Shown one piece after another: positions 10,084 to 19,017 of a DNA stretch of 64,000 nucleotides. Made by a program: the position numbers and the translations under genes. Under the pieces are notes generated by a model. It did no database searches. It was given only the letters and a program-made list of their open reading frames with translations, and was not told where the DNA came from. Positions within the stretch are counted from its first letter, which is position 1. Each line of letters starts with the position of its first letter. This DNA is from Chthoniobacterales bacterium (lineage in GTDB: Bacteria; Verrucomicrobiota; Verrucomicrobiia; Chthoniobacterales; UBA10450). The DNA is taken from contig DASXEB010000016.1 in assembly GCA_036490335.1 (NCBI GenBank), positions 70,489 to 134,488 of the forward strand, given 5' to 3'.

Positions 10084-10736
10084 CGAAGCCGCCGGTGATC
10101 GGGCGAACGCGCGAGGAGATGGCGCAGCGTCTGGCGCAGGACATTCCCGACGGCTCCTATGTGAATCTGGGCATTGGCATTCCGGAGCTGGTCACCAGGT
10201 TCGTGCCGGCGGGCCGCTCGCTGATCTATCACACAGAAAATGGCCTGCTCGGCATGGGCCCCGCGCCCAAGCCCGGCGAAGGCGATCCCGAGCTGCTCAA
10301 TGCGGGCAAACAGCGCGTGACGGCGTTGCCGGGCGCCGCGTATTTTCATCACGCGGACAGCTTCGCTATGATCCGCGGCGGCCACCTGGATCTTTGCGTG
10401 CTCGGCGCGCTCCAGGTCGCGCAGAATGGCGATCTGGCCAACTGGTCCACGGGCGAGCCCGACGCCATCCCCGCAGTCGGCGGCGCCATGGACCTGGTCG
10501 CGGGAGTAAAATCGATCTTCGTCATCACCCAGCATTGCACCAGGGAAGGCGAGGCGAAACTCGTGCAAAAGTGCACCTTTCCGCTGACGGGATTGGCCGT
10601 CGTGAACCGCATCTACACCGATCTCGCCGTGATCGAAGTCACGCCGGACGGATTTCGACTCGTCGAACTGAGCCCAGGCATCAATTTCAATTTCGTGCAG
10701 GAGCGCACCGGTGCGCCTCTGCTTCAAACTAATTAG
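10080..10736 (+). CDS. 3-oxoacid CoA-transferase subunit B
   Basis: Contains EEMAQRLAQDIPDGSYVNLGIGIP and HTENGLLGMGP. ATGA overlap with subunit A. Confidence 0.85.
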   Translation: MTKPPVIGRTREEMAQRLAQDIPDGSYVNLGIGIPELVTRFVPAGRSLIYHTENGLLGMGPAPKPGEGDPELLNAGKQRVTALPGAAYFHHADSFAMIRGGHLDLCVLGALQVAQNGDLANWSTGEPDAIPAVGGAMDLVAGVKSIFVITQHCTREGEAKLVQKCTFPLTGLAVVNRIYTDLAVIEVTPDGFRLVELSPGINFNFVQERTGAPLLQTN

Positions 10737-10744
10737 GAAGGAAG

Positions 10745-11145
10745 AATTAAGATTTAAGAAGGTGGCCACAGGAGATCCGGGGAAAGATTTGCGTAAACGA
10801 ACGATGAGCTTTGCCCTTCGTATTGTTCGGATGTTTTCGGCTCTGCCGAAAACGACTGGGGCACAGATACTTGGCAAGCAGGTGCTCCGTTCCGGGACGT
10901 CGGTGGGAGCAAATTATCGGGAGGCTTTCCGAGCGCGCAGTAAGCCGGAGTTCATCTCGAAGTGCGGCGACTGTTTGAAGGAAGTCGAAGAAACCGCTTA
11001 CTGGCTCGAGCTGCTTGTTGATGCAGAATTTGTCATTCCGGAAAAGCTGGCGCATCTGCAGCGGGAATGCGACGAGCTGACGGCGATCTTCGTTTCGATC
11101 ATCAAGAGTTCGAGGCGCAATACGACCACTTCTTAAATCTTAATT
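10745..11145. repeat. 17-bp perfect inverted repeat flanking the four-helix-bundle gene
   Basis: AATTAAGATTTAAGAAG at 10745-10761 is the exact reverse complement of CTTCTTAAATCTTAATT at 11129-11145. Both flanks are strikingly AT-rich compared with their surroundings. Confidence 0.8.
10804..11136 (+). CDS. Four-helix-bundle protein (23S rRNA intervening-sequence protein family)
   Basis: MSFALRIVRMFSALPKTTGAQILGKQVLRSGTSVGANYREAFRARSKPEFISKCGDCLKEVEETAYWLELL carries the family hallmarks: QLxRSxxSIGANxxEA, and KxxxxxKExxETxYWLxL. Confidence 0.8.
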   Translation: MSFALRIVRMFSALPKTTGAQILGKQVLRSGTSVGANYREAFRARSKPEFISKCGDCLKEVEETAYWLELLVDAEFVIPEKLAHLQRECDELTAIFVSIIKSSRRNTTTS

Positions 11146-11162
11146 TTTAATTCTTAATTCTG

Positions 11163-12560: not shown

Positions 12561-12585
12561 GCCCCCCCGGCAGGGGGCTTGTTTG
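12561..12585 (+). terminator. Possible intrinsic terminator after the aminotransferase gene
   Basis: GCCCCC (12561-12566), loop CCGGCA, GGGGGC (12573-12578), followed by TTGTTTG. Confidence 0.4.
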
Positions 12586-12623: not shown

Positions 12624-13730
12624 ATGCCTACACAGTTGACGATCATCGATTTGTTCTGCGGCGTTGGCGGATTCAGCTTAGGCGCAGCACAAGCGGGTTT
12701 CCGGCCGTTGGTCGGTATCGATATCGATCCTGATCTAATTTCCGGATATGGTTTAAACTTCCCTTCGGCGCGTGCAGTGGAGGCCGACATCTCGGAATTA
12801 GACGCTCCCGCATGGGAAGAGATTCTGCGGGGCAATCAGCCTCTGGGAATCATCGGCGGACCGCCGTGTCAGGGCTTCAGCCGGATCGGGAAACGCGAGA
12901 AGAATGATGCGCGCAACCGGCTAGTCGGATCGTTTATCAAACAGGTCTGTTCGTTGCGTCCAGCGTTCTTTGTCATGGAAAATGTCGAAGGGCTTCTGGA
13001 TTCAGACTTCGAGGAGATGCTTGAGCTCGCTCTCCGTCGAGCGCGAGATCACTATGAGCTAATAGGACCGATTCAATTAAACGCATGCGACGCTGGAGTC
13101 CCCACCGATCGCCGTCGTGTAATCGTGGTAGGATATGATTCGGCAAGAGTTGGAAGGTTGGTCCCAACCGATTTTGCGATCAAGAGTCGCAGTAAAGTGA
13201 CCGTGCGCGATGCCATCGAAGATCTTCCCGCTCCGAATGAAGATGATGATGGCGACTTTGCTTGGTCCCGGTATTCGTCAGGAGTGAGTCTAGGAACTTA
13301 TGCACGGACGATGAGGGGGTCACTGCCGCGCGGCGTGGGTTGGGAGGCGTCCCTGAAGCGAAGAGAGTCGGAGGTATCCGGATTGCAAAAGACGATTCAC
13401 ACGTGGGAGGTTGTAGAGCGATTCGACCGGGTCGCCGCTGGGAAAACCGATTCGATTAGCCGGTATCCTCGCCTTTCGTGGGATGGCCGCTGCCCAACGT
13501 TGCGCGCTGGAACCGGATCGGAACGCGGATCGTTCCAAGCAGCTCGTCCAATCCATCCGGAAGAGCCTCGGGTTATCACGGTGCGAGAAGCCGCCAGACT
13601 CCAGGGATTCCCGGACGCCTTCGTGTTCCATCCGACGAAATGGCACAGCTTCAGAATGATCGGCAACAGCGTGTCGCCTCCGGTCGCGCGGAAAGTGATG
13701 GCAGTTATTCGAGGGAAGATTAAGAAGTAG
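12624..13730 (+). CDS. dcm: DNA (cytosine-5)-methyltransferase
   Basis: Motif I DLFCGVGGFSLG, motif IV GGPPCQGFS (catalytic Cys), motif VI FFVMENVEGL, RLQGFPDAF, and motif X GNSVSPPVA. Confidence 0.9.
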   Translation: MPTQLTIIDLFCGVGGFSLGAAQAGFRPLVGIDIDPDLISGYGLNFPSARAVEADISELDAPAWEEILRGNQPLGIIGGPPCQGFSRIGKREKNDARNRLVGSFIKQVCSLRPAFFVMENVEGLLDSDFEEMLELALRRARDHYELIGPIQLNACDAGVPTDRRRVIVVGYDSARVGRLVPTDFAIKSRSKVTVRDAIEDLPAPNEDDDGDFAWSRYSSGVSLGTYARTMRGSLPRGVGWEASLKRRESEVSGLQKTIHTWEVVERFDRVAAGKTDSISRYPRLSWDGRCPTLRAGTGSERGSFQAARPIHPEEPRVITVREAARLQGFPDAFVFHPTKWHSFRMIGNSVSPPVARKVMAVIRGKIKK

Positions 13731-13740
13731 CGGAGACCAG

Positions 13741-15420
13741 ATGGCCAAGGGAGTCGAACGCAGGCAGGCGGACACCAGTCCGACCAAGGAAGTGGTCGTC
13801 CAAAGTCTCACGAAGGACGCGACGACACAGGCGTGTCTTTTCGATTTGGTTGACAACGCGATTGACGGGGCTCGTGAAGTGATCGAAGCGGGCGGCGGCA
13901 AAACCAAGACGAAGCCAATCGACCTGCCTTCATCCTACAAAGGTTACAAAGTCGATCTGCGGGTAAGCGGTTCCGAGGTTCGGGTCGAAGACAATGCTTC
14001 TGGTATATCGGCTGATGATTTGGAGAAGTCCGTCCTACGATTCGGTCAGCGGGCCGGACGTCCGCACGGCATTGGCTTTTATGGCGTGGGGCTGAACCGC
14101 GCTCTCTTCAAACTCGGTCGAACGGTCAAAATCGATACCGATGACGGCAAGTCGCATTCTCTAATTGGGTTCGATGTCGATGATTACCTGAAGGAGGCGA
14201 CTACGTGGGAGCGTCCTTTCGACGTGACCGCTTCAACCGGCAAGCGAGGAACGACGATCACGTTGACCAATCCGGCACCCGAAATCTCACGCGAACTTGC
14301 AGGTTCGGACGAGATCCTTCGGCGCGATCTGGGCCGACGCTATCATCGTTTTTTGCAGAAGGGACTGAAGATTCTTTTCCAAGGAAAACCTGTCGAGCCT
14401 CTCTATATCCCGCTCCGTGGAAACTCACCTTTCCCGAGGCTCCACAAATCATACCGCAGTGGAGACAACGTTTGGATTCATATCGAAGCAGGCGAGCATC
14501 GCGATCACCTGTTCCCTGCCGAGATGGCCGAGGGAAGCGCGAACCCGCCGGAACTGACTCGGGATTTCGGCTGGTCCGTGCTGTGCAACGACCGTGAGAT
14601 TGTGGAGGCCGACCGGACGGATAAAACCGGCTGGGAGCACACGTGGCACCCTGAGTACAATGGCTTCGTCGGCCGGGTTCATTTTGTAAGTTCCGCCCCT
14701 GATCTGCTGCCTTGGAACACTTCGAAAACCGATGTGGACCGAAATAACGCTGCCTACCAACGCGCTCTGGAAGACATGCAGGCATTTGCGGCGAAATGGC
14801 GCCAATACACTCGCGCCGCGAAAACTGCGAAACGGAAGGGACTGCTGCTGCCCGTTCCCGGACCGCGCAAAGGAGTTGAGAGTGCGCCGAGCGCCAAGTC
14901 AAATTCACGGCGCCCAAAGGCGAAGATGCGACAGCATAGTCGGTGGCTCTTGCCCGCCGACATCGACGAGGGGAAATGCAGTGGAAAGTTGCTCGAACTT
15001 GTCGGGGAAGGTAAGTCTATCGACGCCTTCGAGAACCGATACACTGGGTTGGCGCTGATGCGCATATTGTTCGAGGTGGCCAGTGTTCATTTCTTAAAAC
15101 GAGCCAAGCTTCTCGAACCCTGTAGAGCGTGGTGCATCGCAAAAGAGGAGGCGGCTCGGGCGAAAGCCTATAGCGCTGACCACAAGAAAAGATACGTGCC
15201 CGCCCTCTCAATTCTCTTGGATTACTTCACGGCACACTGGGAACCGACCTTCGGGCCCGCAGCAGGAGCCTATCTCGAACCGAGCTTCAACAAATTCAAG
15301 CAATTCAAGTCGGATATGGACAGCGCTGTGCATCATCCATTCAACGAGATCAACGCTATTCGCGCGATTGAGATGCGCGACTCGTGCATTCCGATCTTGC
15401 GGCACTTGCTCGAAACCTAA
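13741..15420 (+). CDS. GHKL (Bergerat-fold, MORC/MutL-like) ATPase with an unassigned ~200-aa C-terminal domain
   Basis: N-box FDLVDNAIDGA (aa 34-44), G1 box VEDNASGIS (aa 82-90), G2 box GIGFYGVGLNRALFKLG (aa 110-126). No nuclease motif seen. Sits between dcm and vsr with 10-nt and 5-nt gaps. Confidence 0.7.
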   Translation: MAKGVERRQADTSPTKEVVVQSLTKDATTQACLFDLVDNAIDGAREVIEAGGGKTKTKPIDLPSSYKGYKVDLRVSGSEVRVEDNASGISADDLEKSVLRFGQRAGRPHGIGFYGVGLNRALFKLGRTVKIDTDDGKSHSLIGFDVDDYLKEATTWERPFDVTASTGKRGTTITLTNPAPEISRELAGSDEILRRDLGRRYHRFLQKGLKILFQGKPVEPLYIPLRGNSPFPRLHKSYRSGDNVWIHIEAGEHRDHLFPAEMAEGSANPPELTRDFGWSVLCNDREIVEADRTDKTGWEHTWHPEYNGFVGRVHFVSSAPDLLPWNTSKTDVDRNNAAYQRALEDMQAFAAKWRQYTRAAKTAKRKGLLLPVPGPRKGVESAPSAKSNSRRPKAKMRQHSRWLLPADIDEGKCSGKLLELVGEGKSIDAFENRYTGLALMRILFEVASVHFLKRAKLLEPCRAWCIAKEEAARAKAYSADHKKRYVPALSILLDYFTAHWEPTFGPAAGAYLEPSFNKFKQFKSDMDSAVHHPFNEINAIRAIEMRDSCIPILRHLLET

Positions 15421-15425
15421 AGAGC

Positions 15426-15848
15426 ATGACGGATCACGTGTCCGTATTGCATCGGAGCGCGATCATGCGCTCTGTTGGATCAAAAAATACCGGTCCTGAA
15501 ATTCTTGTCCGCCGCGCTGCTCATTCTCTTGGGTTGCGATTCCGTTTGCATCGAAAATCGCTGCCGGGCACGCCCGACATAGTATTTCCTAAGTCCAAGA
15601 CGGCAATCTTTGTGCACGGCTGCTTCTGGCACCGCCATTCGAAATGTCGAAAGGCGACCACGCCACGATCAAGAGTCGAGTTTTGGAACGCTAAATTCGA
15701 CCGAAACGTGGCCCGAGATGCGGAGTCTCAGTCCTTGCTGCGCAAGCTTGGCTGGAAGGTAATTGTCGTTTGGCAGTGCGAGGTCCCGACAAAGGAGGCT
15801 GCGGAGAAGATTTTGAAGCGCGTCTTCTTCAGTCGCAGAGGGTCATGA
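15426..15848 (+). CDS. vsr: Very-short-patch repair endonuclease
   Basis: RSAIMRSVGSKNTGPEILVRRAAHSLGLRFRLH...LPGTPDIVFPKSKTAIFVHGCFWHRH...FWNAKFDRNVARD is canonical Vsr. Confidence 0.9.
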   Translation: MTDHVSVLHRSAIMRSVGSKNTGPEILVRRAAHSLGLRFRLHRKSLPGTPDIVFPKSKTAIFVHGCFWHRHSKCRKATTPRSRVEFWNAKFDRNVARDAESQSLLRKLGWKVIVVWQCEVPTKEAAEKILKRVFFSRRGS

Positions 15849-15919: not shown

Positions 15920-16033
15920 TCGAACGATCTGACAGTCAGGCTCACTTCCAAAACTCACTCCCGTTCGAAGACCGTCGCCAAGCCTTGTCCTACCCCGACG
16001 CAGAGCGACGCCATGCCGCGCGAGGCGTCGGTG
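15920..16033 (-). pseudogene. Orphan copy of the 3' end of the thiolase gene plus 35 bp of its downstream flank (att-like repeat, copy A)
   Basis: About 94% identical (6 substitutions and 1 indel by eye) to 17778-17890. Encodes ...ASLCVGVGQGLATVFERE* like the true thiolase C-terminus. ORF 15955..16242 in the track is this fragment fused to unrelated sequence. Confidence 0.75.
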
Positions 16034-16228
16034 TCCAGCGAATCCCAACAGTGGGATCGGTAGCGTAGAAAGACGCACTTGCGTCGATTTTCGGACGTAA
16101 ACTTCTCTGTATATGATAGTAAGCGCACTTGAGTCGCGAATAAACTGCTCTCAAAACGCTGTTGCCAATAACGGCAGGACATCAGGTGAGATTGCAGAAT
16201 CAAATTTCTAAATTGAAATCTCTCTTGG

Positions 16229-16362
16229 GAATATTGAAACATGCCTTTTCAATATTGAACGCCAGCGAATCAATATTGCTTTCGGTGCTCTGATTATTTA
16301 CCGGTGATCTTGCGGTAACTGCTAGCCACTTGTCGTATTCGACTTTTCGTACGGCAATATTG
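16229..16362. promoter_or_regulatory. Array of four (C/G)AATATTG palindromic boxes upstream of ORF 16426
   Basis: GAATATTG at 16229-16236; CAATATTG at 16250-16257, 16271-16278 and 16355-16362. The first three are spaced exactly 21 bp apart, in an AT-rich region. Confidence 0.5.
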
Positions 16363-16425
16363 GCGGAAGGCGTGGCAAGAAAGCTGCTTTAATTCTCGGC
16401 AGCAGATTAACCGAAAGGAAATTAT

Positions 16426-16821
16426 ATGGCTCGTAAACCAATGAGAGTTGAAATCCCGAAGAACCCCGATGACTGCATTACGCTCGCCGGAAAGGTGATC
16501 GCCAAGCATGTCGCCGACGGCGCAACCAGTCCGATTACCGGTCTGGGCATGGCCGACATGGCGGTCAAAAACACCACCGCCGACGCGCAAAACAAGCAAT
16601 CGAAAGACCTCGCCCGTCAGTCGCAGCTCTGCACGGAGAATCGCGATATCGCGTTGGGCAAGGACACTTCGAAAGAAGGCACGGTGCGCTTCTACCTGAA
16701 CTCGGTGCGCGACACCTTGCTCGGCAAATATCGCGGCAATCCCAGCCAATTAGGCGATTGGGGTTTTGACGTCATGACGACGCCCAAACCTCCGAAGGCG
16801 AAGAAAACGCCATCGGCGTAA
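16426..16821 (+). CDS. Hypothetical protein (131 aa), no family recognised
   Basis: ATG start with GAAAGGAAA 6 nt upstream. Sole long ORF in the AT-rich cargo segment on this strand. K/P-rich tail. Confidence 0.45.
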   Translation: MARKPMRVEIPKNPDDCITLAGKVIAKHVADGATSPITGLGMADMAVKNTTADAQNKQSKDLARQSQLCTENRDIALGKDTSKEGTVRFYLNSVRDTLLGKYRGNPSQLGDWGFDVMTTPKPPKAKKTPSA

Positions 16822-16932
16822 TCGTTACGCGTTTGCCCGTCGTGGCTCGCGTCCGGTGAAATCCCGGCCAAGCGGGCGACGCGCAACACGAATGGTCTGC
16901 GAGGCAGCAATTATTCTCCGCGTAATGCGCGG

Positions 16933-17739
16933 CTAAACTGTCAATGCCGAATCTTCTCTTCTGCGGGACGGTAAGTAATCGCGCAGCAAATCTGTAACCC
17001 GCTGTTTAGTTTCGCGTGTCGCGCCGGGGTGGGTTACCACGCGACGAACAATTTTCCGCAATTTGATCGGAATATGTCGGCACAGATCTTCCGAGGCAAT
17101 ACTTTCGTCCTCGCGCGGGACTCGCAACATACGGTATTCACGCTCAATCCTACAGCTGGCCGGCTTGTAGAAGAATAGGCTCGTGTGCGTGAACTCGGTT
17201 CGGGGAAAATCTAATGACGCATACTTCACTCCGTACTTCATGATTTCTTCTGGCACAAAACGCCGTAGTGCCTTCGCGGACGTGGCGATCACCACGCTGT
17301 TCGGTGTCTTCGTATATCCCCGCCACATCTCCCAACATTCGCGTGTCCCGCGATTCCAGCATGAAATGAACATTACTTGTCTGATTGTCTCTTGGGATTC
17401 CTTCCAATTCTCAGGTCTCTTGACCGGGTAGAGTTTCTGAAATGCCTCCTCCGACTTCGACATCGTCTCCGTGTTACCCGGTGACTCGCGGCCCTCAAAC
17501 GGTTCATCAAACTGGTCGGCCCTCGCAAAGTAGATTGTCGACCTCTTGAGCATGTCTTCGAACTTCCAAAGCTCCATGTATCGCCAGAGCGTCTCGTGAT
17601 CGGCAACCACCTCATACGGCCAATCCTCACTAAAAACGGGCGCTACCGGCCCGACGATTTCACCAGTGTAGCGATTATACATGACGCGCCCAAGCGGGCG
17701 CGGCGGACTTGCAGCGCTTGCTCTTTTACTCGGCAGCAT
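16933..17739 (-). CDS. DUF2971-like protein
   Basis: YFARADQFDEPFEG resembles the conserved (F/Y)xxxxxxFxDPxE motif I recall for DUF2971. The true start may be the internal MYNRYTG. Confidence 0.5.
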   Translation of the reverse strand: MLPSKRASAASPPRPLGRVMYNRYTGEIVGPVAPVFSEDWPYEVVADHETLWRYMELWKFEDMLKRSTIYFARADQFDEPFEGRESPGNTETMSKSEEAFQKLYPVKRPENWKESQETIRQVMFISCWNRGTRECWEMWRGYTKTPNSVVIATSAKALRRFVPEEIMKYGVKYASLDFPRTEFTHTSLFFYKPASCRIEREYRMLRVPREDESIASEDLCRHIPIKLRKIVRRVVTHPGATRETKQRVTDLLRDYLPSRRREDSALTV

Positions 17740-17811
17740 ACTTGCGCGAAAGGGTGCGTTGGAGAGGCGCTGGGCGCTCGAACGATCTGACAGTCAGGCC
17801 CACTTCCAAAC

Positions 17812-19017
<1,206 letters not shown>

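What the first reader, a model, noticed from the sequence alone, without database searches (positions are those of the whole stretch)
12624..15848. Dcm, MORC-like GHKL ATPase and Vsr: a methylation-linked module with no recognisable nuclease
Three tightly packed co-oriented genes, with gaps of 10 and 5 nt:
- a canonical C5-cytosine methyltransferase;
- a 559-aa protein whose first ~130 aa carry clear Bergerat-fold motifs (N-box FDLVDNAIDGA, G1 DNASG, G2 GIGFYGVGLN);
- a canonical Vsr nicking endonuclease.

GHKL/MORC-type ATPases have been noted computationally in restriction-modification contexts (the paraMORC idea). To my knowledge their mechanism there has not been characterised.

No PD-(D/E)xK, HNH or other nuclease motif is visible in the module. 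The C-terminal ~200 aa of the ATPase (about nt 14800-15420, predicted helical, ending ...DSAVHHPFNEINAIRAIEMRD...) has no family I recognise.

The ATPase may be the restriction or effector component using a novel domain. Or it may be a methylation-sensing switch. Or the true endonuclease may have been lost, for example at the adjacent insertion scar.
Basis: partly seen in the sequence, partly recalled or inferred. Interest (0 to 1): 0.75.

Follow-up and report, generated by a model that had tools for sequence, protein, structure and literature searches.

The report
Methylase-linked ATPase with uncharacterised effector domain
A DNA cytosine methylase is always paired with a MORC-like ATPase that carries a small, undescribed helical end domain, so the pair looks like a restriction-modification defence module whose effector has never been tested biochemically.

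Summary

The ATPase has three parts: a Bergerat ATPase domain, an S5-type transducer and, after a disordered linker, a 160-aa all-helical C-terminal domain (CTD). The CTD matches no Pfam, NCBIfam or PADLOC model.

- In 32 genomes from several phyla, a ~50%-identical Dcm gene accompanies the ATPase in every locus. It lies directly upstream in 31.
- Vsr is present in only 15 of the 32 loci, at variable positions.
- No other gene is conserved, so nothing has been lost at the nearby insertion scar.
- The CTD is rare: 108 cluster representatives among 1.84 billion proteins.
- The CTD also ends ParB-like proteins that sit next to Dam-type adenine methylases.
- Its fold is only weakly HEPN-like, and it lacks the HEPN Rx4-6H motif.

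Best reading: a mobile two-gene restriction-modification-type module. The ATPase is an ATP-gated effector acting through the CTD, and Vsr is an optional repair accessory.

GHKL "restriction" genes beside Dcm and Vsr were already noted computationally (paraMORCs, R.NmeAIP, R.HgiDII). This is therefore a new variant of a known kind, and its mechanism is unproven.

The parts
12561..12578 (+). Terminator-like GC hairpin followed by a T-run. It ends the upstream aminotransferase unit and marks the left edge of the module.
   Evidence: GCCCCCCCGGCAGGGGGC then TTGTTTG; sequence.
12624..13730 (+). C5-cytosine DNA methyltransferase (Dcm), 368 aa. It is the modification subunit.
   Evidence: PF00145 E 6.6e-57. 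TIGR00675 140.8 bits, above the cut-off. PADLOC MTase_II E 8.8e-89. ~50%-identical orthologues accompany the ATPase in 32 of 32 loci. The target-recognition stretch PTLRAGTGS.KGSFQA.RP.HP is 81-92% conserved.
13741..14310 (+). ATPase gene, aa 1-190: GHKL (Bergerat-fold) ATP-binding domain. N-box DLVDNAIDGA (aa 35-44), G1 DNASG (84-88), G2 GIGFYGVGLNRA (110-121).
   Evidence: HATPase_c_3 and HATPase_c above their gathering scores. Motif residues invariant in 61 homologues. Foldseek E ~1e-13 to Hsp90, MORC, SMCHD1 and GyrB. The usual general-base Glu is an invariant Asp (D35).
14311..14835 (+). ATPase gene, aa 191-365: beta-rich transducer (S5-like) domain with invariant K329 in LPWNTsKTDVD. Family-specific conserved polar residues: H253, H256, E261, C282-N283-D284-R285, H303, E305.
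   Evidence: AF2 model pLDDT ~90-97 in this stretch. Foldseek alignments of 400-445 columns to MORC3/4/2 ATPase modules and the GyrB 43K fragment span this domain. Conservation.
14836..14940 (+). ATPase gene, aa 366-400: end of a long helix followed by a low-complexity, disordered, basic linker.
   Evidence: pLDDT below 50 for aa 374-397. This stretch is variable in length and sequence in the alignment.
14941..15420 (+). ATPase gene, aa 401-559 plus stop: all-helical C-terminal domain (CTD) of an undescribed family. It is the candidate effector or dimerisation domain. Conserved: L404-P405-x-D407, E410, E423-x-K425, R441, E445, N527-x3-H531, R546, R554-H555.
   Evidence: CTD-only AF2 model pLDDT 96.2. 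No Pfam, NCBIfam or PDB sequence match. Foldseek best hit is a HEPN protein, 2hsb, at E=1, prob 0.84. 108 representatives in 1.84 billion proteins. Homologous to the C-terminus of ParB-like proteins: hhalign prob 99.6, E 1.7e-23.
15426..15848 (+). Vsr very-short-patch-repair T:G mismatch endonuclease, 140 aa. It is an accessory gene that offsets 5mC deamination.
   Evidence: PF03852 E 1.8e-28. TIGR00632 137.2 bits, above the cut-off. Present in only 15 of 32 related loci, at variable position and orientation.
15920..16033 (+). Left copy of a ~114-nt direct repeat, a duplicate of the thiolase 3' end. It bounds a separate 1.86-kb insertion and is not part of the module.
   Evidence: families D1 and D2: 94-97% identical to 17778-17890.

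Best explanation
This is a compact, horizontally mobile restriction-modification-type module with a two-gene core: Dcm and a GHKL-S5-CTD protein. Vsr is an optional add-on.

Proposed roles:
- Dcm marks host DNA with 5-methylcytosine at one sequence motif.
- The 559-aa protein is the 'R' or effector subunit. Like other GHKL-plus-transducer ATPases (MutL, GyrB, MORC), it is expected to work as a dimer whose N-terminal gate closes on ATP binding to clamp DNA.
- The helical CTD, joined by a flexible basic linker, would hold the dimer together and carry the effector site. Candidate residues are E423, R441, E445, N527 and H531, which act on unmethylated invading nucleic acid.
- Vsr only repairs the T:G mismatches produced by deamination of the 5mC that Dcm makes.

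Shown here:
- gene content and spacing;
- the three-domain architecture;
- intact ATP-binding motifs and the transducer lysine;
- obligatory Dcm linkage and optional Vsr;
- absence of any other conserved partner;
- reuse of the CTD by ParB-like proteins paired with adenine methylases.

Inferred, not shown:
- restriction or defence function;
- ATP-gated clamping;
- that the CTD is catalytic;
- whether its substrate is DNA (my preference, by analogy with the active GHKL enzyme R.HgiDII) or RNA.
For: 1. Obligatory pairing. In 32 loci from Alpha-, Beta-, Gamma- and Deltaproteobacteria and Nitrospinota, plus this Verrucomicrobial window, a ~42-54%-identical Dcm accompanies the ATPase in 32 of 32. 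It is directly upstream and co-oriented in 31. Clustering of all flanking ORFs finds no other gene in more than 12 loci. A more distant 636-aa member is also preceded by a C5 methylase.

2. Vsr is accessory. It occurs in 15 of 32 loci: downstream on the same strand in 7, convergent in 4, upstream in 3 and further away in 1.

3. The ATPase looks competent. Motifs I-III and K329 are invariant, and the fold matches MORC, Hsp90 and GyrB ATPase-plus-transducer modules at E ~1e-13.

4. The CTD is a module specialised for methylase partners.
- An HMM of it finds only 108 representatives in 1.84e9 proteins. Nearly all are the C-termini of ~560-640-aa GHKL proteins or of ~466-531-aa proteins without GHKL.
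- The proteins without GHKL have a ParB-like N-terminus (EGNRRxxALK; profile hit to ParB 4umk, E 5e-4).
- They share the CTD at hhalign prob 99.6, E 1.7e-23.
- They sit next to a D12-class adenine methylase for 6 of the 8 distinct proteins looked up.

5. Precedent. R.HgiDII is an active Type II enzyme with an N-terminal GHKL domain and an unassigned C-terminus. Four other REBASE subfamilies share the GHKL N-terminus (PMC2441816). The NmeAI system is methylase + restriction gene + patch-repair gene (PMC3787668). VcSduA, a GHKL plus PD-(D/E)xK protein, needs both its ATPase and its nuclease residues for anti-phage activity (PMC12137116).

6. Behaviour typical of a toxic R gene. In L032 the ATPase ORF is split into 411 and 194 aa while dcm is intact. 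The family is patchy across phyla, and this copy sits in a lower-GC stretch (0.53-0.57 against ~0.60-0.64) beside an insertion hotspot.
Against: - No nuclease fold or motif is recognised anywhere in the protein.
- The CTD's only structural resemblance, to HEPN, is statistically insignificant (E=1), and the defining Rx4-6H motif is absent.
- The catalytic general base of GHKL ATPases (Glu) is an invariant Asp here, so ATP turnover may be slow. The protein could be a binder or switch rather than a motor.
- No element that reads DNA sequence or methylation state has been identified.
- No member of the family has been tested, and the methylated motif is unknown.
- The single split ORF in L032 could be an assembly error.
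Confidence: 0.55

Rival explanations
1. Methylation-gated abortive infection by an RNase. The CTD is a divergent HEPN ribonuclease, as proposed by Anantharaman et al. for paraMORC-Ymh fusions. The ATPase senses unmethylated or foreign DNA and unleashes RNA cleavage that arrests the cell, rather than cutting the invader's DNA.
For: - The best Foldseek hit of the CTD is the HEPN protein 2hsb (prob 0.84, TM 0.56 on the target). Three other HEPN structures (4nqf, 7ae6, 1jog) are in the short hit list.
- The conserved [L/M]-N527-x3-H531 has the spacing of the common HEPN 'R-N-x3-H' motif (the comparison is from my own knowledge).
- There are sub-threshold Pfam hits to HEPN_MAE_28990, DUF4145 and HEPN_RES_NTD1.
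- PMC3710099 describes Ymh-HEPN domains fused to paraMORCs in R-M neighbourhoods and predicts a PrrC-like RNase role.
Against: - The Arg of Rx4-6H is replaced by Leu or Met in every member.
- Foldseek E=1 is not significant.
- There is no hit to Hypoth_Ymh or any HEPN model at usable E-values.
- The PrrC model needs a separate primary DNase, and none is present.
- The residues conserved across both architectures include two Glu (E423, E445). That fits metal-dependent chemistry better than metal-independent HEPN chemistry.
Confidence: 0.2
2. Nuclease-free silencing. The protein is a MORC-like ATP-dependent clamp that entraps and compacts unmethylated DNA, blocking its replication or transcription without cutting. 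The CTD is only a dimerisation domain.
For: - The closest solved folds include MORC2, MORC3, MORC4 and SMCHD1 ATPase modules.
- No nuclease motif is detectable.
- The invariant Asp in place of the catalytic Glu suggests a slow ATPase suited to a long-lived clamp.
- The second architecture that uses the CTD has a ParB-like domain. ParB proteins form nucleotide-gated DNA clamps (my own knowledge).
- A long basic linker joins the two halves.
Against: - A pure dimerisation domain would not need polar residues that are invariant or nearly so (E423, R441, E445, N527, H531) across two very different architectures.
- All experimentally tested GHKL partners of defence or R-M systems found in the literature act with a nuclease (PMC2441816, PMC12137116).
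- No methyl-reader domain is evident.
Confidence: 0.12
3. Repair accessory. The ATPase is a dedicated MutL-like helper that stimulates Vsr in very-short-patch repair of Dcm-induced T:G mismatches. On this reading the operon is 'methylate and repair', not defence.
For: - The gene lies between dcm and vsr.
- E. coli MutL, a GHKL ATPase, interacts with Vsr in very-short-patch repair (cited in PMC2292703).
Against: - Vsr is missing from 17 of 32 loci and has no fixed position, whereas Dcm is always there.
- The CTD is unrelated to the MutL C-terminal domain.
- The CTD is shared with ParB-like proteins linked to adenine methylases, where deamination repair is irrelevant.
- Patchy, island-borne distribution fits selfish or defence genes.
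Confidence: 0.08

Closest known systems
NmeAI-type M-R-V systems of Neisseria (M.NmeAI C5mCGG, putative R.NmeAIP, V.NmeAI)
   Same: [quoted passage not shown] R.NmeAIP has an N-terminal GHKL domain and a helical C-terminal domain (PMC2441816).
   Different: The C-terminus of R.NmeAIP matches Pfam Hypoth_Ymh, a HEPN family (PMC2441816, PMC3710099). The CTD here matches neither Ymh nor any other model. R.NmeAIP itself is only putative. I could not align the two directly because no NmeAIP sequence was available.
R.HgiDII / R.BbrUII family (NCBIfam NF050001): active Type II enzymes with a GHKL N-terminus, paired with m5C methylases
   Same: A GHKL ATPase domain followed by a C-terminal region of unknown fold, partnered with a C5 methylase. 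This shows that such proteins can be real DNA endonucleases (PMC2441816, PMC5867850).
   Different: The similarity covers only the GHKL domain (aa 70-219): 16.8 bits against a family cut-off of 550. The proteins differ in length (about 659 against 559 aa), and the C-terminal domains are unrelated as far as could be tested.
paraMORC ATPases of R-M operons (Iyer, Abhiman and Aravind 2008)
   Same: GHKL plus S5 module with a family-specific C-terminal extension. Operons contain cytosine methylases and Vsr. Distribution is mobile and patchy (PMC2292703).
   Different: The described families use helicases, PD-(D/E)xK (paraMORC3), TIR (paraMORC4) or an HxH domain (paraMORC5). None is described with this CTD or as a strict two-gene Dcm pair. 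Which paraMORC number, if any, covers this family could not be tested.
VcSduA / Shedu type I-D (paraMORC3)
   Same: A single polypeptide with an N-terminal GHKL ATPase, a clamp-like middle domain and a C-terminal effector. ATPase and effector residues are both needed for phage defence (PMC12137116).
   Different: The effector there is a DUF4263 PD-(D/E)xK nuclease and no methylase is involved. Here the tail is all-helical and a Dcm is obligatory.
[not shown]
   Same: A weak GHKL-domain match (NF041932, E 1.9e-5). Both are methylase-associated defence contexts.
ParB-like + CTD proteins paired with D12 (Dam-type) methylases, found here
   Same: The same C-terminal domain (hhalign prob 99.6) and the same two-gene logic with a DNA methylase.
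   Different: The N-terminal engine is a ParB-like domain plus helix-turn-helix instead of GHKL-S5. The partner methylates adenine, not cytosine, and there is no Vsr.

Membership tests
GHKL (Bergerat-fold) ATPase superfamily | Motif I (N-box, ExxxNxxD) | tested here: met
   D35-L-V-D-N39-A-I-D42 is invariant in 61 sequences. The general-base position is Asp, not Glu.
GHKL (Bergerat-fold) ATPase superfamily | Motifs II (DxGxG) and III (GxxGxG), and a profile match above threshold | tested here: met
   D84/G88 and G112/G115/G117 are invariant. PF13589 scores 30.4 (cut-off 25) and PF02518 scores 29.4 (cut-off 26.4).
GHKL (Bergerat-fold) ATPase superfamily | Bergerat fold | tested here: met
   AF2 model pLDDT 89. 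Foldseek E 7e-14 to 1e-12 against Hsp90/TRAP1, MORC3/4/2, SMCHD1 and GyrB.
MORC / paraMORC (GHKL + S5 transducer) ATPases | S5-fold transducer after the GHKL domain, with a conserved Lys that reaches the ATP site | tested here: met
   400-445 aligned columns with MORC ATPase modules and the GyrB 43K fragment. K329 is invariant in LPWNTTK. The contact of the Lys with ATP is inferred.
MORC / paraMORC (GHKL + S5 transducer) ATPases | MORC-specific signature motif that separates true MORCs from paraMORCs (Iyer 2008) | not tested
Foldseek does not rank MORC above Hsp90.
MORC / paraMORC (GHKL + S5 transducer) ATPases | Occurrence in R-M-type neighbourhoods (methylase, Vsr) | tested here: met
   Dcm in 32 of 32 loci and Vsr in 15 of 32.
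Type II restriction-modification system | Cognate DNA methyltransferase tightly linked to the candidate R gene | tested here: met
Type II restriction-modification system | R protein carries a recognised endonuclease fold (PD-(D/E)xK, HNH, GIY-YIG, PLD, half-pipe) | tested here: not met
   No such Pfam, NCBIfam or PADLOC hit. CTD Foldseek shows no nuclease fold. A P405-x-D407...E423-x-K425 string exists, but it lies in a helical, non-REase context.
Type II restriction-modification system | Sequence-specific cleavage of unmethylated DNA | not testable with these tools
   Needs biochemistry or in vivo restriction assays.
BbrUII/HgiDII family restriction enzyme (NF050001) | Full-length profile match above the curated cut-off | tested here: not met
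   16.8 bits against a cut-off of 550. Only aa 70-219 align.
[not shown]
   23.3 bits against 850. No conserved partners.
HEPN superfamily (including Ymh, PF09509) | Four-helix up-down bundle core resembling solved HEPN domains | tested here: inconclusive
   The top Foldseek hit is HEPN 2hsb, but at E=1.0 (prob 0.84, TM 0.44/0.56). 4nqf, 7ae6 and 1jog are also listed.
HEPN superfamily (including Ymh, PF09509) | Conserved Rx4-6H catalytic motif | tested here: not met
   The corresponding stretch is [L/M]-N527-x3-H531. No conserved Arg lies 5-7 residues before a conserved His.
HEPN superfamily (including Ymh, PF09509) | Profile match to a HEPN family model | tested here: not met
   No Hypoth_Ymh hit. 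There are only isolated sub-threshold hits: HEPN_MAE_28990 0.026, DUF4145 0.12, HEPN_RES_NTD1 0.074. DUF5677 and DUF6988 hit at about 1e-3 to 2e-4 in a few members.
Shedu type I-D / paraMORC3 (VcSduA-like) | C-terminal DUF4263 PD-(D/E)xK nuclease | tested here: not met
   No DUF4263 or Shedu hit in Pfam or PADLOC.
Vsr endonuclease | Profile match above the curated cut-off | tested here: met
   TIGR00632, 137.2 against 97.85, full length 1-119 of 119.

The most novel reading that the evidence does not exclude
The CTD is a new effector domain: either a new all-helical nuclease active site built from E423, R441, E445, N527 and H531, or a non-nucleolytic silencing module. Evolution has plugged it onto two unrelated nucleotide-gated DNA clamps, a GHKL ATPase and a ParB-like domain. 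Each is kept in check by its own methylase, m5C or m6A. That would define a previously unrecognised class of restriction-modification systems in which a DNA-entrapping clamp, not a classical endonuclease fold, discriminates and disables unmethylated DNA. It would also give a minimal bacterial model for how MORC-type ATPases couple to DNA methylation.
Probability: 0.25. Interest if true: 0.8.

Novelty: new variant of a known kind. Interest (0 to 1): 0.55.

Why it matters
GHKL/paraMORC 'restriction' genes have sat in REBASE and in comparative-genomics papers since 2008 without a mechanism. The C-terminal domains of the GHKL-containing enzymes were flagged then as candidates for new nuclease folds.

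This family is a favourable test case.
- It needs only two genes.
- The protein models with high confidence.
- The candidate active-site residues are few and invariant.
- The same tail occurs on a second engine (ParB-like) with a second methylase type, which gives a built-in comparison.

A demonstration of what the tail does would settle three things: how a MORC-like ATPase can be tied to DNA methylation in a minimal system, whether a new nuclease or silencing domain exists, and whether these widely annotated 'ATP-binding proteins' are defence genes. If the tail is simply a divergent HEPN RNase or a dimerisation domain, the module is an ordinary member of the paraMORC R-M class.

Tried and rejected
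1. Endonuclease lost at the insertion scar. Rejected: no further gene is conserved in 32 loci, and the scar is a separate 1.86-kb insertion.

2. Membership of MZA, HgiDII/BbrUII, Shedu or PD-Lambda-5. Only domain-level or negligible scores were found.

3. Ymh/HEPN assignment of the CTD.
- Pfam and NCBIfam scans of the CTD alone, and of 30-61 family members, gave no usable hit.
- A PDB sequence-profile search gave nothing.
- Foldseek against the PDB gave only E >= 1, and Foldseek against viral models gave nothing.

4. A hidden PD-(D/E)xK. The string P405-x-D407...E423-x-K425 fits the pattern. It lies in a strand-plus-helix segment of an all-helical domain, and D407 and K425 are not conserved in the ParB-linked relatives. 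Rejected as a classical REase core.

5. A MutL-endonuclease-like 'QHxxHRFxxE' in the transducer domain. The spacing differs from DQHAx2Ex4E, and the motif is absent from the short paralogue. Treated as coincidental.

6. Guessing the recognition site from oligonucleotide avoidance in the 64-kb window. CAGCTG (O/E 0.29), CTGCAG (0.34) and GTCGAC (0.51) are low, but counts are small and not specific. Inconclusive.

7. Plasmid and phage collections. No full-length homologue was found. The hits belong to a shorter paralogue without the CTD.

8. Literature searches found no experimental work on this family.

9. I could not obtain model coordinates, so spatial clustering of the conserved CTD residues was not checked.

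Full report
**1. The observation**

The window carries three co-oriented ORFs on the + strand:
- dcm, 12624-13730, 368 aa;
- a 559-aa ORF, 13741-15420;
- vsr, 15426-15848, 140 aa.

Reading the junctions directly gives the following. The dcm TAG is followed by a 10-nt spacer with GGAG and then the ATG of the second gene. The TAA of the second gene is followed by 5 nt and then the vsr ATG. A GC hairpin with a T-run at 12561-12578 closes the preceding aminotransferase gene, so the three genes look like one unit.

Dcm and Vsr are canonical.
- Dcm: PF00145 E 6.6e-57; TIGR00675 140.8 bits (cut-off 100.65).
- Vsr: PF03852 E 1.8e-28; TIGR00632 137.2 bits (cut-off 97.85).

The middle protein passes the gathering scores of HATPase_c_3 and HATPase_c. 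The protein is identical to an NCBI 'ATP-binding protein' from a Chthoniobacterales MAG.

**2. Anatomy of the ATPase**

An AlphaFold2 model built on the 61-sequence alignment is confident (mean pLDDT 89). It shows four segments:
- a Bergerat ATP-binding domain (aa ~1-190);
- a beta-rich second domain (aa ~191-365);
- a disordered, basic, length-variable linker (pLDDT below 50 for aa 374-397);
- an all-helical C-terminal domain, the CTD (aa ~401-559).

Foldseek against the PDB aligns 400-445 columns, that is the first two domains together. The matches are Hsp90/TRAP1, MORC3, MORC4, MORC2, SMCHD1 and the GyrB/ParE 43K fragments, at E 7e-14 to 1e-11. The protein therefore has the GHKL-plus-transducer (S5) architecture of MutL, topoisomerase and MORC ATPases.

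'MORC-like' is fair as an architectural label, although MORC is not singled out over Hsp90.

The transducer carries an invariant lysine, K329, in LPWNTTKTDVD. It sits where GyrB and MutL have the lysine that contacts the ATP gamma-phosphate. That equivalence is inferred from established knowledge of those families.

One departure deserves note. The residue four positions before the N-box Asn, a Glu general base in GyrB, MutL, Hsp90 and MORC, is an invariant Asp (D35). From memory of the GyrB E42D work this is compatible with slow hydrolysis. I mark that as recalled, not tested.

**3. The C-terminal domain**

Modelled alone, the CTD gives pLDDT 96.2 and pTM 0.90, with about seven helices. No Pfam or NCBIfam model matches it, whether scanned alone or across 30-61 family members.
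- The best signals are isolated sub-threshold hits to DUF6988 (2-5 members, best 1.9e-4) and DUF5677 (2-3 members, best 1e-3).
- In PADLOC the only signal is a negligible PD-Lambda-5_A hit over aa 370-457 (E 0.0016, 15.2 bits).
- A sequence-profile search of the PDB found nothing.
- Foldseek against the PDB found no match at E <= 1e-3.

The best Foldseek hit is the HEPN protein AF_0298 (2hsb; E=1.0, prob 0.84, TM 0.56 normalised to the target). Three more HEPN structures (4nqf, 7ae6, 1jog) are among 37 weak hits. The viral library gave nothing.

The family-wide conserved residues are L404-P405-x-D407, E410, C413, K416, E423-x-K425, Y434, R441, E445, R454, N527-x3-H531, R546, P551 and R554-H555.

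The stretch [L/M]-N-x-x-x-H-N has the spacing of the common HEPN 'R-N-x3-H' signature, but the Arg is missing in every sequence. The defining Rx4-6H motif is therefore not met. I describe the CTD as an undescribed helical domain, possibly a derived HEPN-like bundle, and not as a HEPN member.

**4. Neighbourhood census**

A scan of one genome per species (185,579 species) found 32 loci. They come from Caulobacter, Methylobacterium, Methylocystis, Henriciella, Paraburkholderia, Pandoraea, Collimonas, Gallionella, Pseudomonas, Desulfovibrio, Nitrospinota and others.

tblastn with the window's proteins and all-against-all clustering of the flanking ORFs show the following.
- A Dcm 42-54% identical to the window's is present in 32 of 32 loci. 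It is immediately upstream and co-oriented in 31. In L020 it is nearby on the other strand.
- Vsr is present in only 15 of 32 loci: directly downstream on the same strand in 7, convergent in 4, upstream of dcm in 3 and further away in 1.
- No other gene cluster occurs in more than 4 loci.

The core is thus a two-gene pair, and Vsr is an accessory that compensates for 5mC deamination. The Dcm target-recognition stretch PTLRAGTGS.KGSFQA.RP.HP is 81-92% conserved, which suggests one shared specificity.

In L032 the ATPase ORF is split (411 + 194 aa) while dcm is intact. This is the decay pattern expected of a toxic R gene, although it is a single case.

The idea that a true endonuclease was lost at the neighbouring scar is not supported. 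The scar is a ~114-nt duplication of the thiolase 3' end (15920-16033 and 17778-17890, 94-97% identical). It brackets a separate 1.86-kb insertion to the right of vsr.

**5. The CTD travels with methylases on two different engines**

An HMM of the CTD, searched against 1.84 billion cluster representatives, finds only 108 proteins at E <= 1e-3. Most are ~560-640-aa GHKL proteins with the domain at the extreme C-terminus.

A second group of ~466-531 aa has no GHKL domain. These sequences begin with a ParB-like domain (...NPR...EGNRRxxALKLL...). A profile of 14 of them hits H. pylori ParB (4umk) at E 5e-4. A helix-turn-helix region follows, and then the CTD. Profile-profile comparison of the two CTD sets gives probability 99.6% and E 1.7e-23 over 156 columns.

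Residues conserved across both architectures are the L-x-P turn, E423, R441, E445, N527 and H531.

I looked up eight distinct ParB-CTD proteins on their contigs.
- Six lie directly beside a D12-class (Dam-type) adenine methylase, often overlapping or within 10-60 nt. Two of these are on integrase-bearing elements.
- One has no methylase.
- One is at a contig end.

A distant 636-aa GHKL-CTD protein is again preceded by a C5 methylase.

The CTD is therefore a rare module found with DNA methylases on two unrelated N-terminal domains and with two kinds of methylation. That pattern fits a shared effector or assembly module better than a reader of one particular methyl mark.

**6. How it most likely works**

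*Shown.* The architecture, the intact nucleotide-binding motifs, the obligatory methylase, the optional Vsr, the absence of other partners and the reuse of the CTD.

*Inferred.*
- Obligatory linkage to a methylase, patchy phyletic spread and location in a lower-GC stretch (0.53-0.57 against ~0.60-0.64) beside an integration hotspot all mark the pair as a restriction-modification-type selfish or defence module.
- The ATPase would be the subunit that is harmful to unmethylated DNA.
- By analogy with MutL, GyrB and MORC, it should act as a dimer whose N-terminal gate closes on ATP to clamp DNA.
- The CTD, tethered by a basic linker, would provide the constitutive dimer contact and the effector site.

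I favour DNA as the target for three reasons. R.HgiDII, a GHKL protein with an unassigned C-terminus, is a genuine Type II endonuclease (PMC2441816). No separate DNase exists for a PrrC-like backup scheme. The cross-family invariants include two glutamates and a histidine, which suits metal-dependent chemistry. Confidence in the overall reading is 0.55. The DNase-versus-RNase choice is much less certain.

**7. Rivals**

- (a) A HEPN-type RNase giving methylation-gated abortive infection, as Anantharaman et al. proposed for paraMORC-Ymh fusions (PMC3710099). The weak HEPN fold signal and the NxxxH spacing support it. The missing Arg, the insignificant scores and the lack of a primary DNase count against it (0.2).
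- (b) Nuclease-free, MORC-like entrapment or compaction of unmethylated DNA, with the CTD as a dimeriser. The absence of nuclease motifs, the Asp general base and the ParB-like sibling support it. The invariant polar residues of the CTD count against it (0.12).
- (c) A MutL-like helper of Vsr. It is weakened by Vsr's absence from 17 of 32 loci and by the CTD's association with adenine methylases (0.08).

**8. Comparison with what is known**

GHKL ATPases in R-M operons with cytosine methylases and Vsr were described computationally as MORC/paraMORC families (PMC2292703).

Orlowski and Bujnicki listed five REBASE subfamilies of GHKL-containing 'REases' (PMC2441816):
- R.HgiDII, which is active and has a C-terminus of unknown fold;
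- R.VeiORF1182P, with a PD-(D/E)xK C-terminus;
- R.NmeAIP, with a Ymh C-terminus;
- R.EcoUTORF4938P;
- R.LweSORF291P.

NmeAI in Neisseria has the same methylase + restriction gene + patch-repair gene composition (PMC3787668) and methylates C5mCGG (PMC4676702).

VcSduA, a paraMORC3/Shedu protein, has been shown to need both ATPase and nuclease residues for phage defence (PMC12137116).

The present family works like these and shares their first two domains. It fails the membership tests for HgiDII/BbrUII (16.8 against 550 bits), MzaB (23.3 against 850), Shedu (no DUF4263) and HEPN/Ymh (no profile hit, no Rx4-6H).

I found no experimental or descriptive paper on this CTD or on the ParB-CTD plus Dam pairs in seven literature searches. 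The library is incomplete, and I could not check REBASE.

**9. Verdict**

The 'lost nuclease' alternative is rejected.

The module is a new variant of a known, computationally described kind: a paraMORC-type R-M-V module. What I could not find described is:
- the distinct CTD family;
- its strict two-gene pairing with Dcm;
- its reuse by ParB-like proteins with Dam-type methylases.

The mechanism remains untested. A specialist would find this interesting rather than startling. It would rise considerably if the CTD proves to be a new nuclease or silencing domain. Interest: 0.55.

Noticed in passing
window 15920-17890: A ~114-nt direct repeat (15920-16033 and 17778-17890, 94-97% identical) duplicates the 3' end of the thiolase gene (17812-19017, minus strand). 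It brackets a 1.86-kb insertion with two ORFs and no integrase. One ORF is 16426-16821 (+, 131 aa, no family). The other is 16933-17739 (-, 268 aa) and weakly matches the PADLOC candidate defence family PDC-S31 (E 6.6e-7). The locus looks like an integration hotspot carrying a second small defence-type cargo.
   Followed up: partly
window 10711-11159: A 141-aa gene of the '23S rRNA-intervening sequence protein' family (PF05635, E 3.3e-20) lies in an AT-rich patch flanked by 31-nt inverted repeats (10731-10761 and 11129-11159, 87% complementary). It sits between a CoA-transferase subunit gene and the aminotransferase gene, and looks like a small inserted cassette.
   Followed up: no
L033-L036, L039-L041, L043 (metagenome and genome contigs): There are two-gene modules made of a ~466-531-aa ParB-like + HTH + CTD protein and a D12-class (Dam-type) adenine methyltransferase. 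Some lie on integrase- or Rep-bearing elements (L041, L043). [quoted passage not shown] I found no description of them.
   Followed up: partly
L020 2875-5321; L029 1608-3919; L030 4128-6439; L046 4980-7394; L047 280-2558: A shorter GHKL paralogue (441-482 aa) has the same GHKL and transducer domains but no CTD. It is always followed by a ~320-aa Pfam Methyltransf_35 'putative O-methyltransferase' (E 1e-73 to 1e-100). The pair sits beside the Dcm-ATPase module in three genomes. It also lies inside a DISARM locus on a Microvirga plasmid, and next to a C5 methylase at the end of Pseudomonas filamentous phage PfAC20.
   Followed up: partly
L032 7953-9699: In Pseudomonas sp. 6D_7.1_Bac1 the ATPase reading frame is split into 411-aa and 194-aa ORFs, while the upstream dcm is intact. 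This could be decay of a toxic R gene or a sequencing error.
   Followed up: no
window, whole 64 kb: Palindromic hexamers CAGCTG (O/E 0.29), CTGCAG (0.34) and GTCGAC (0.51) are under-represented relative to a maximal-order Markov expectation. The numbers are too small to link any of them to this Dcm.
   Followed up: partly
window 13843-13845 (codon for D35): The GHKL general-base position, Glu in GyrB, MutL, Hsp90 and MORC, is an invariant Asp in all 61 homologues and also in the short paralogue. This suggests a deliberately slow ATPase in this clade.
   Followed up: partly
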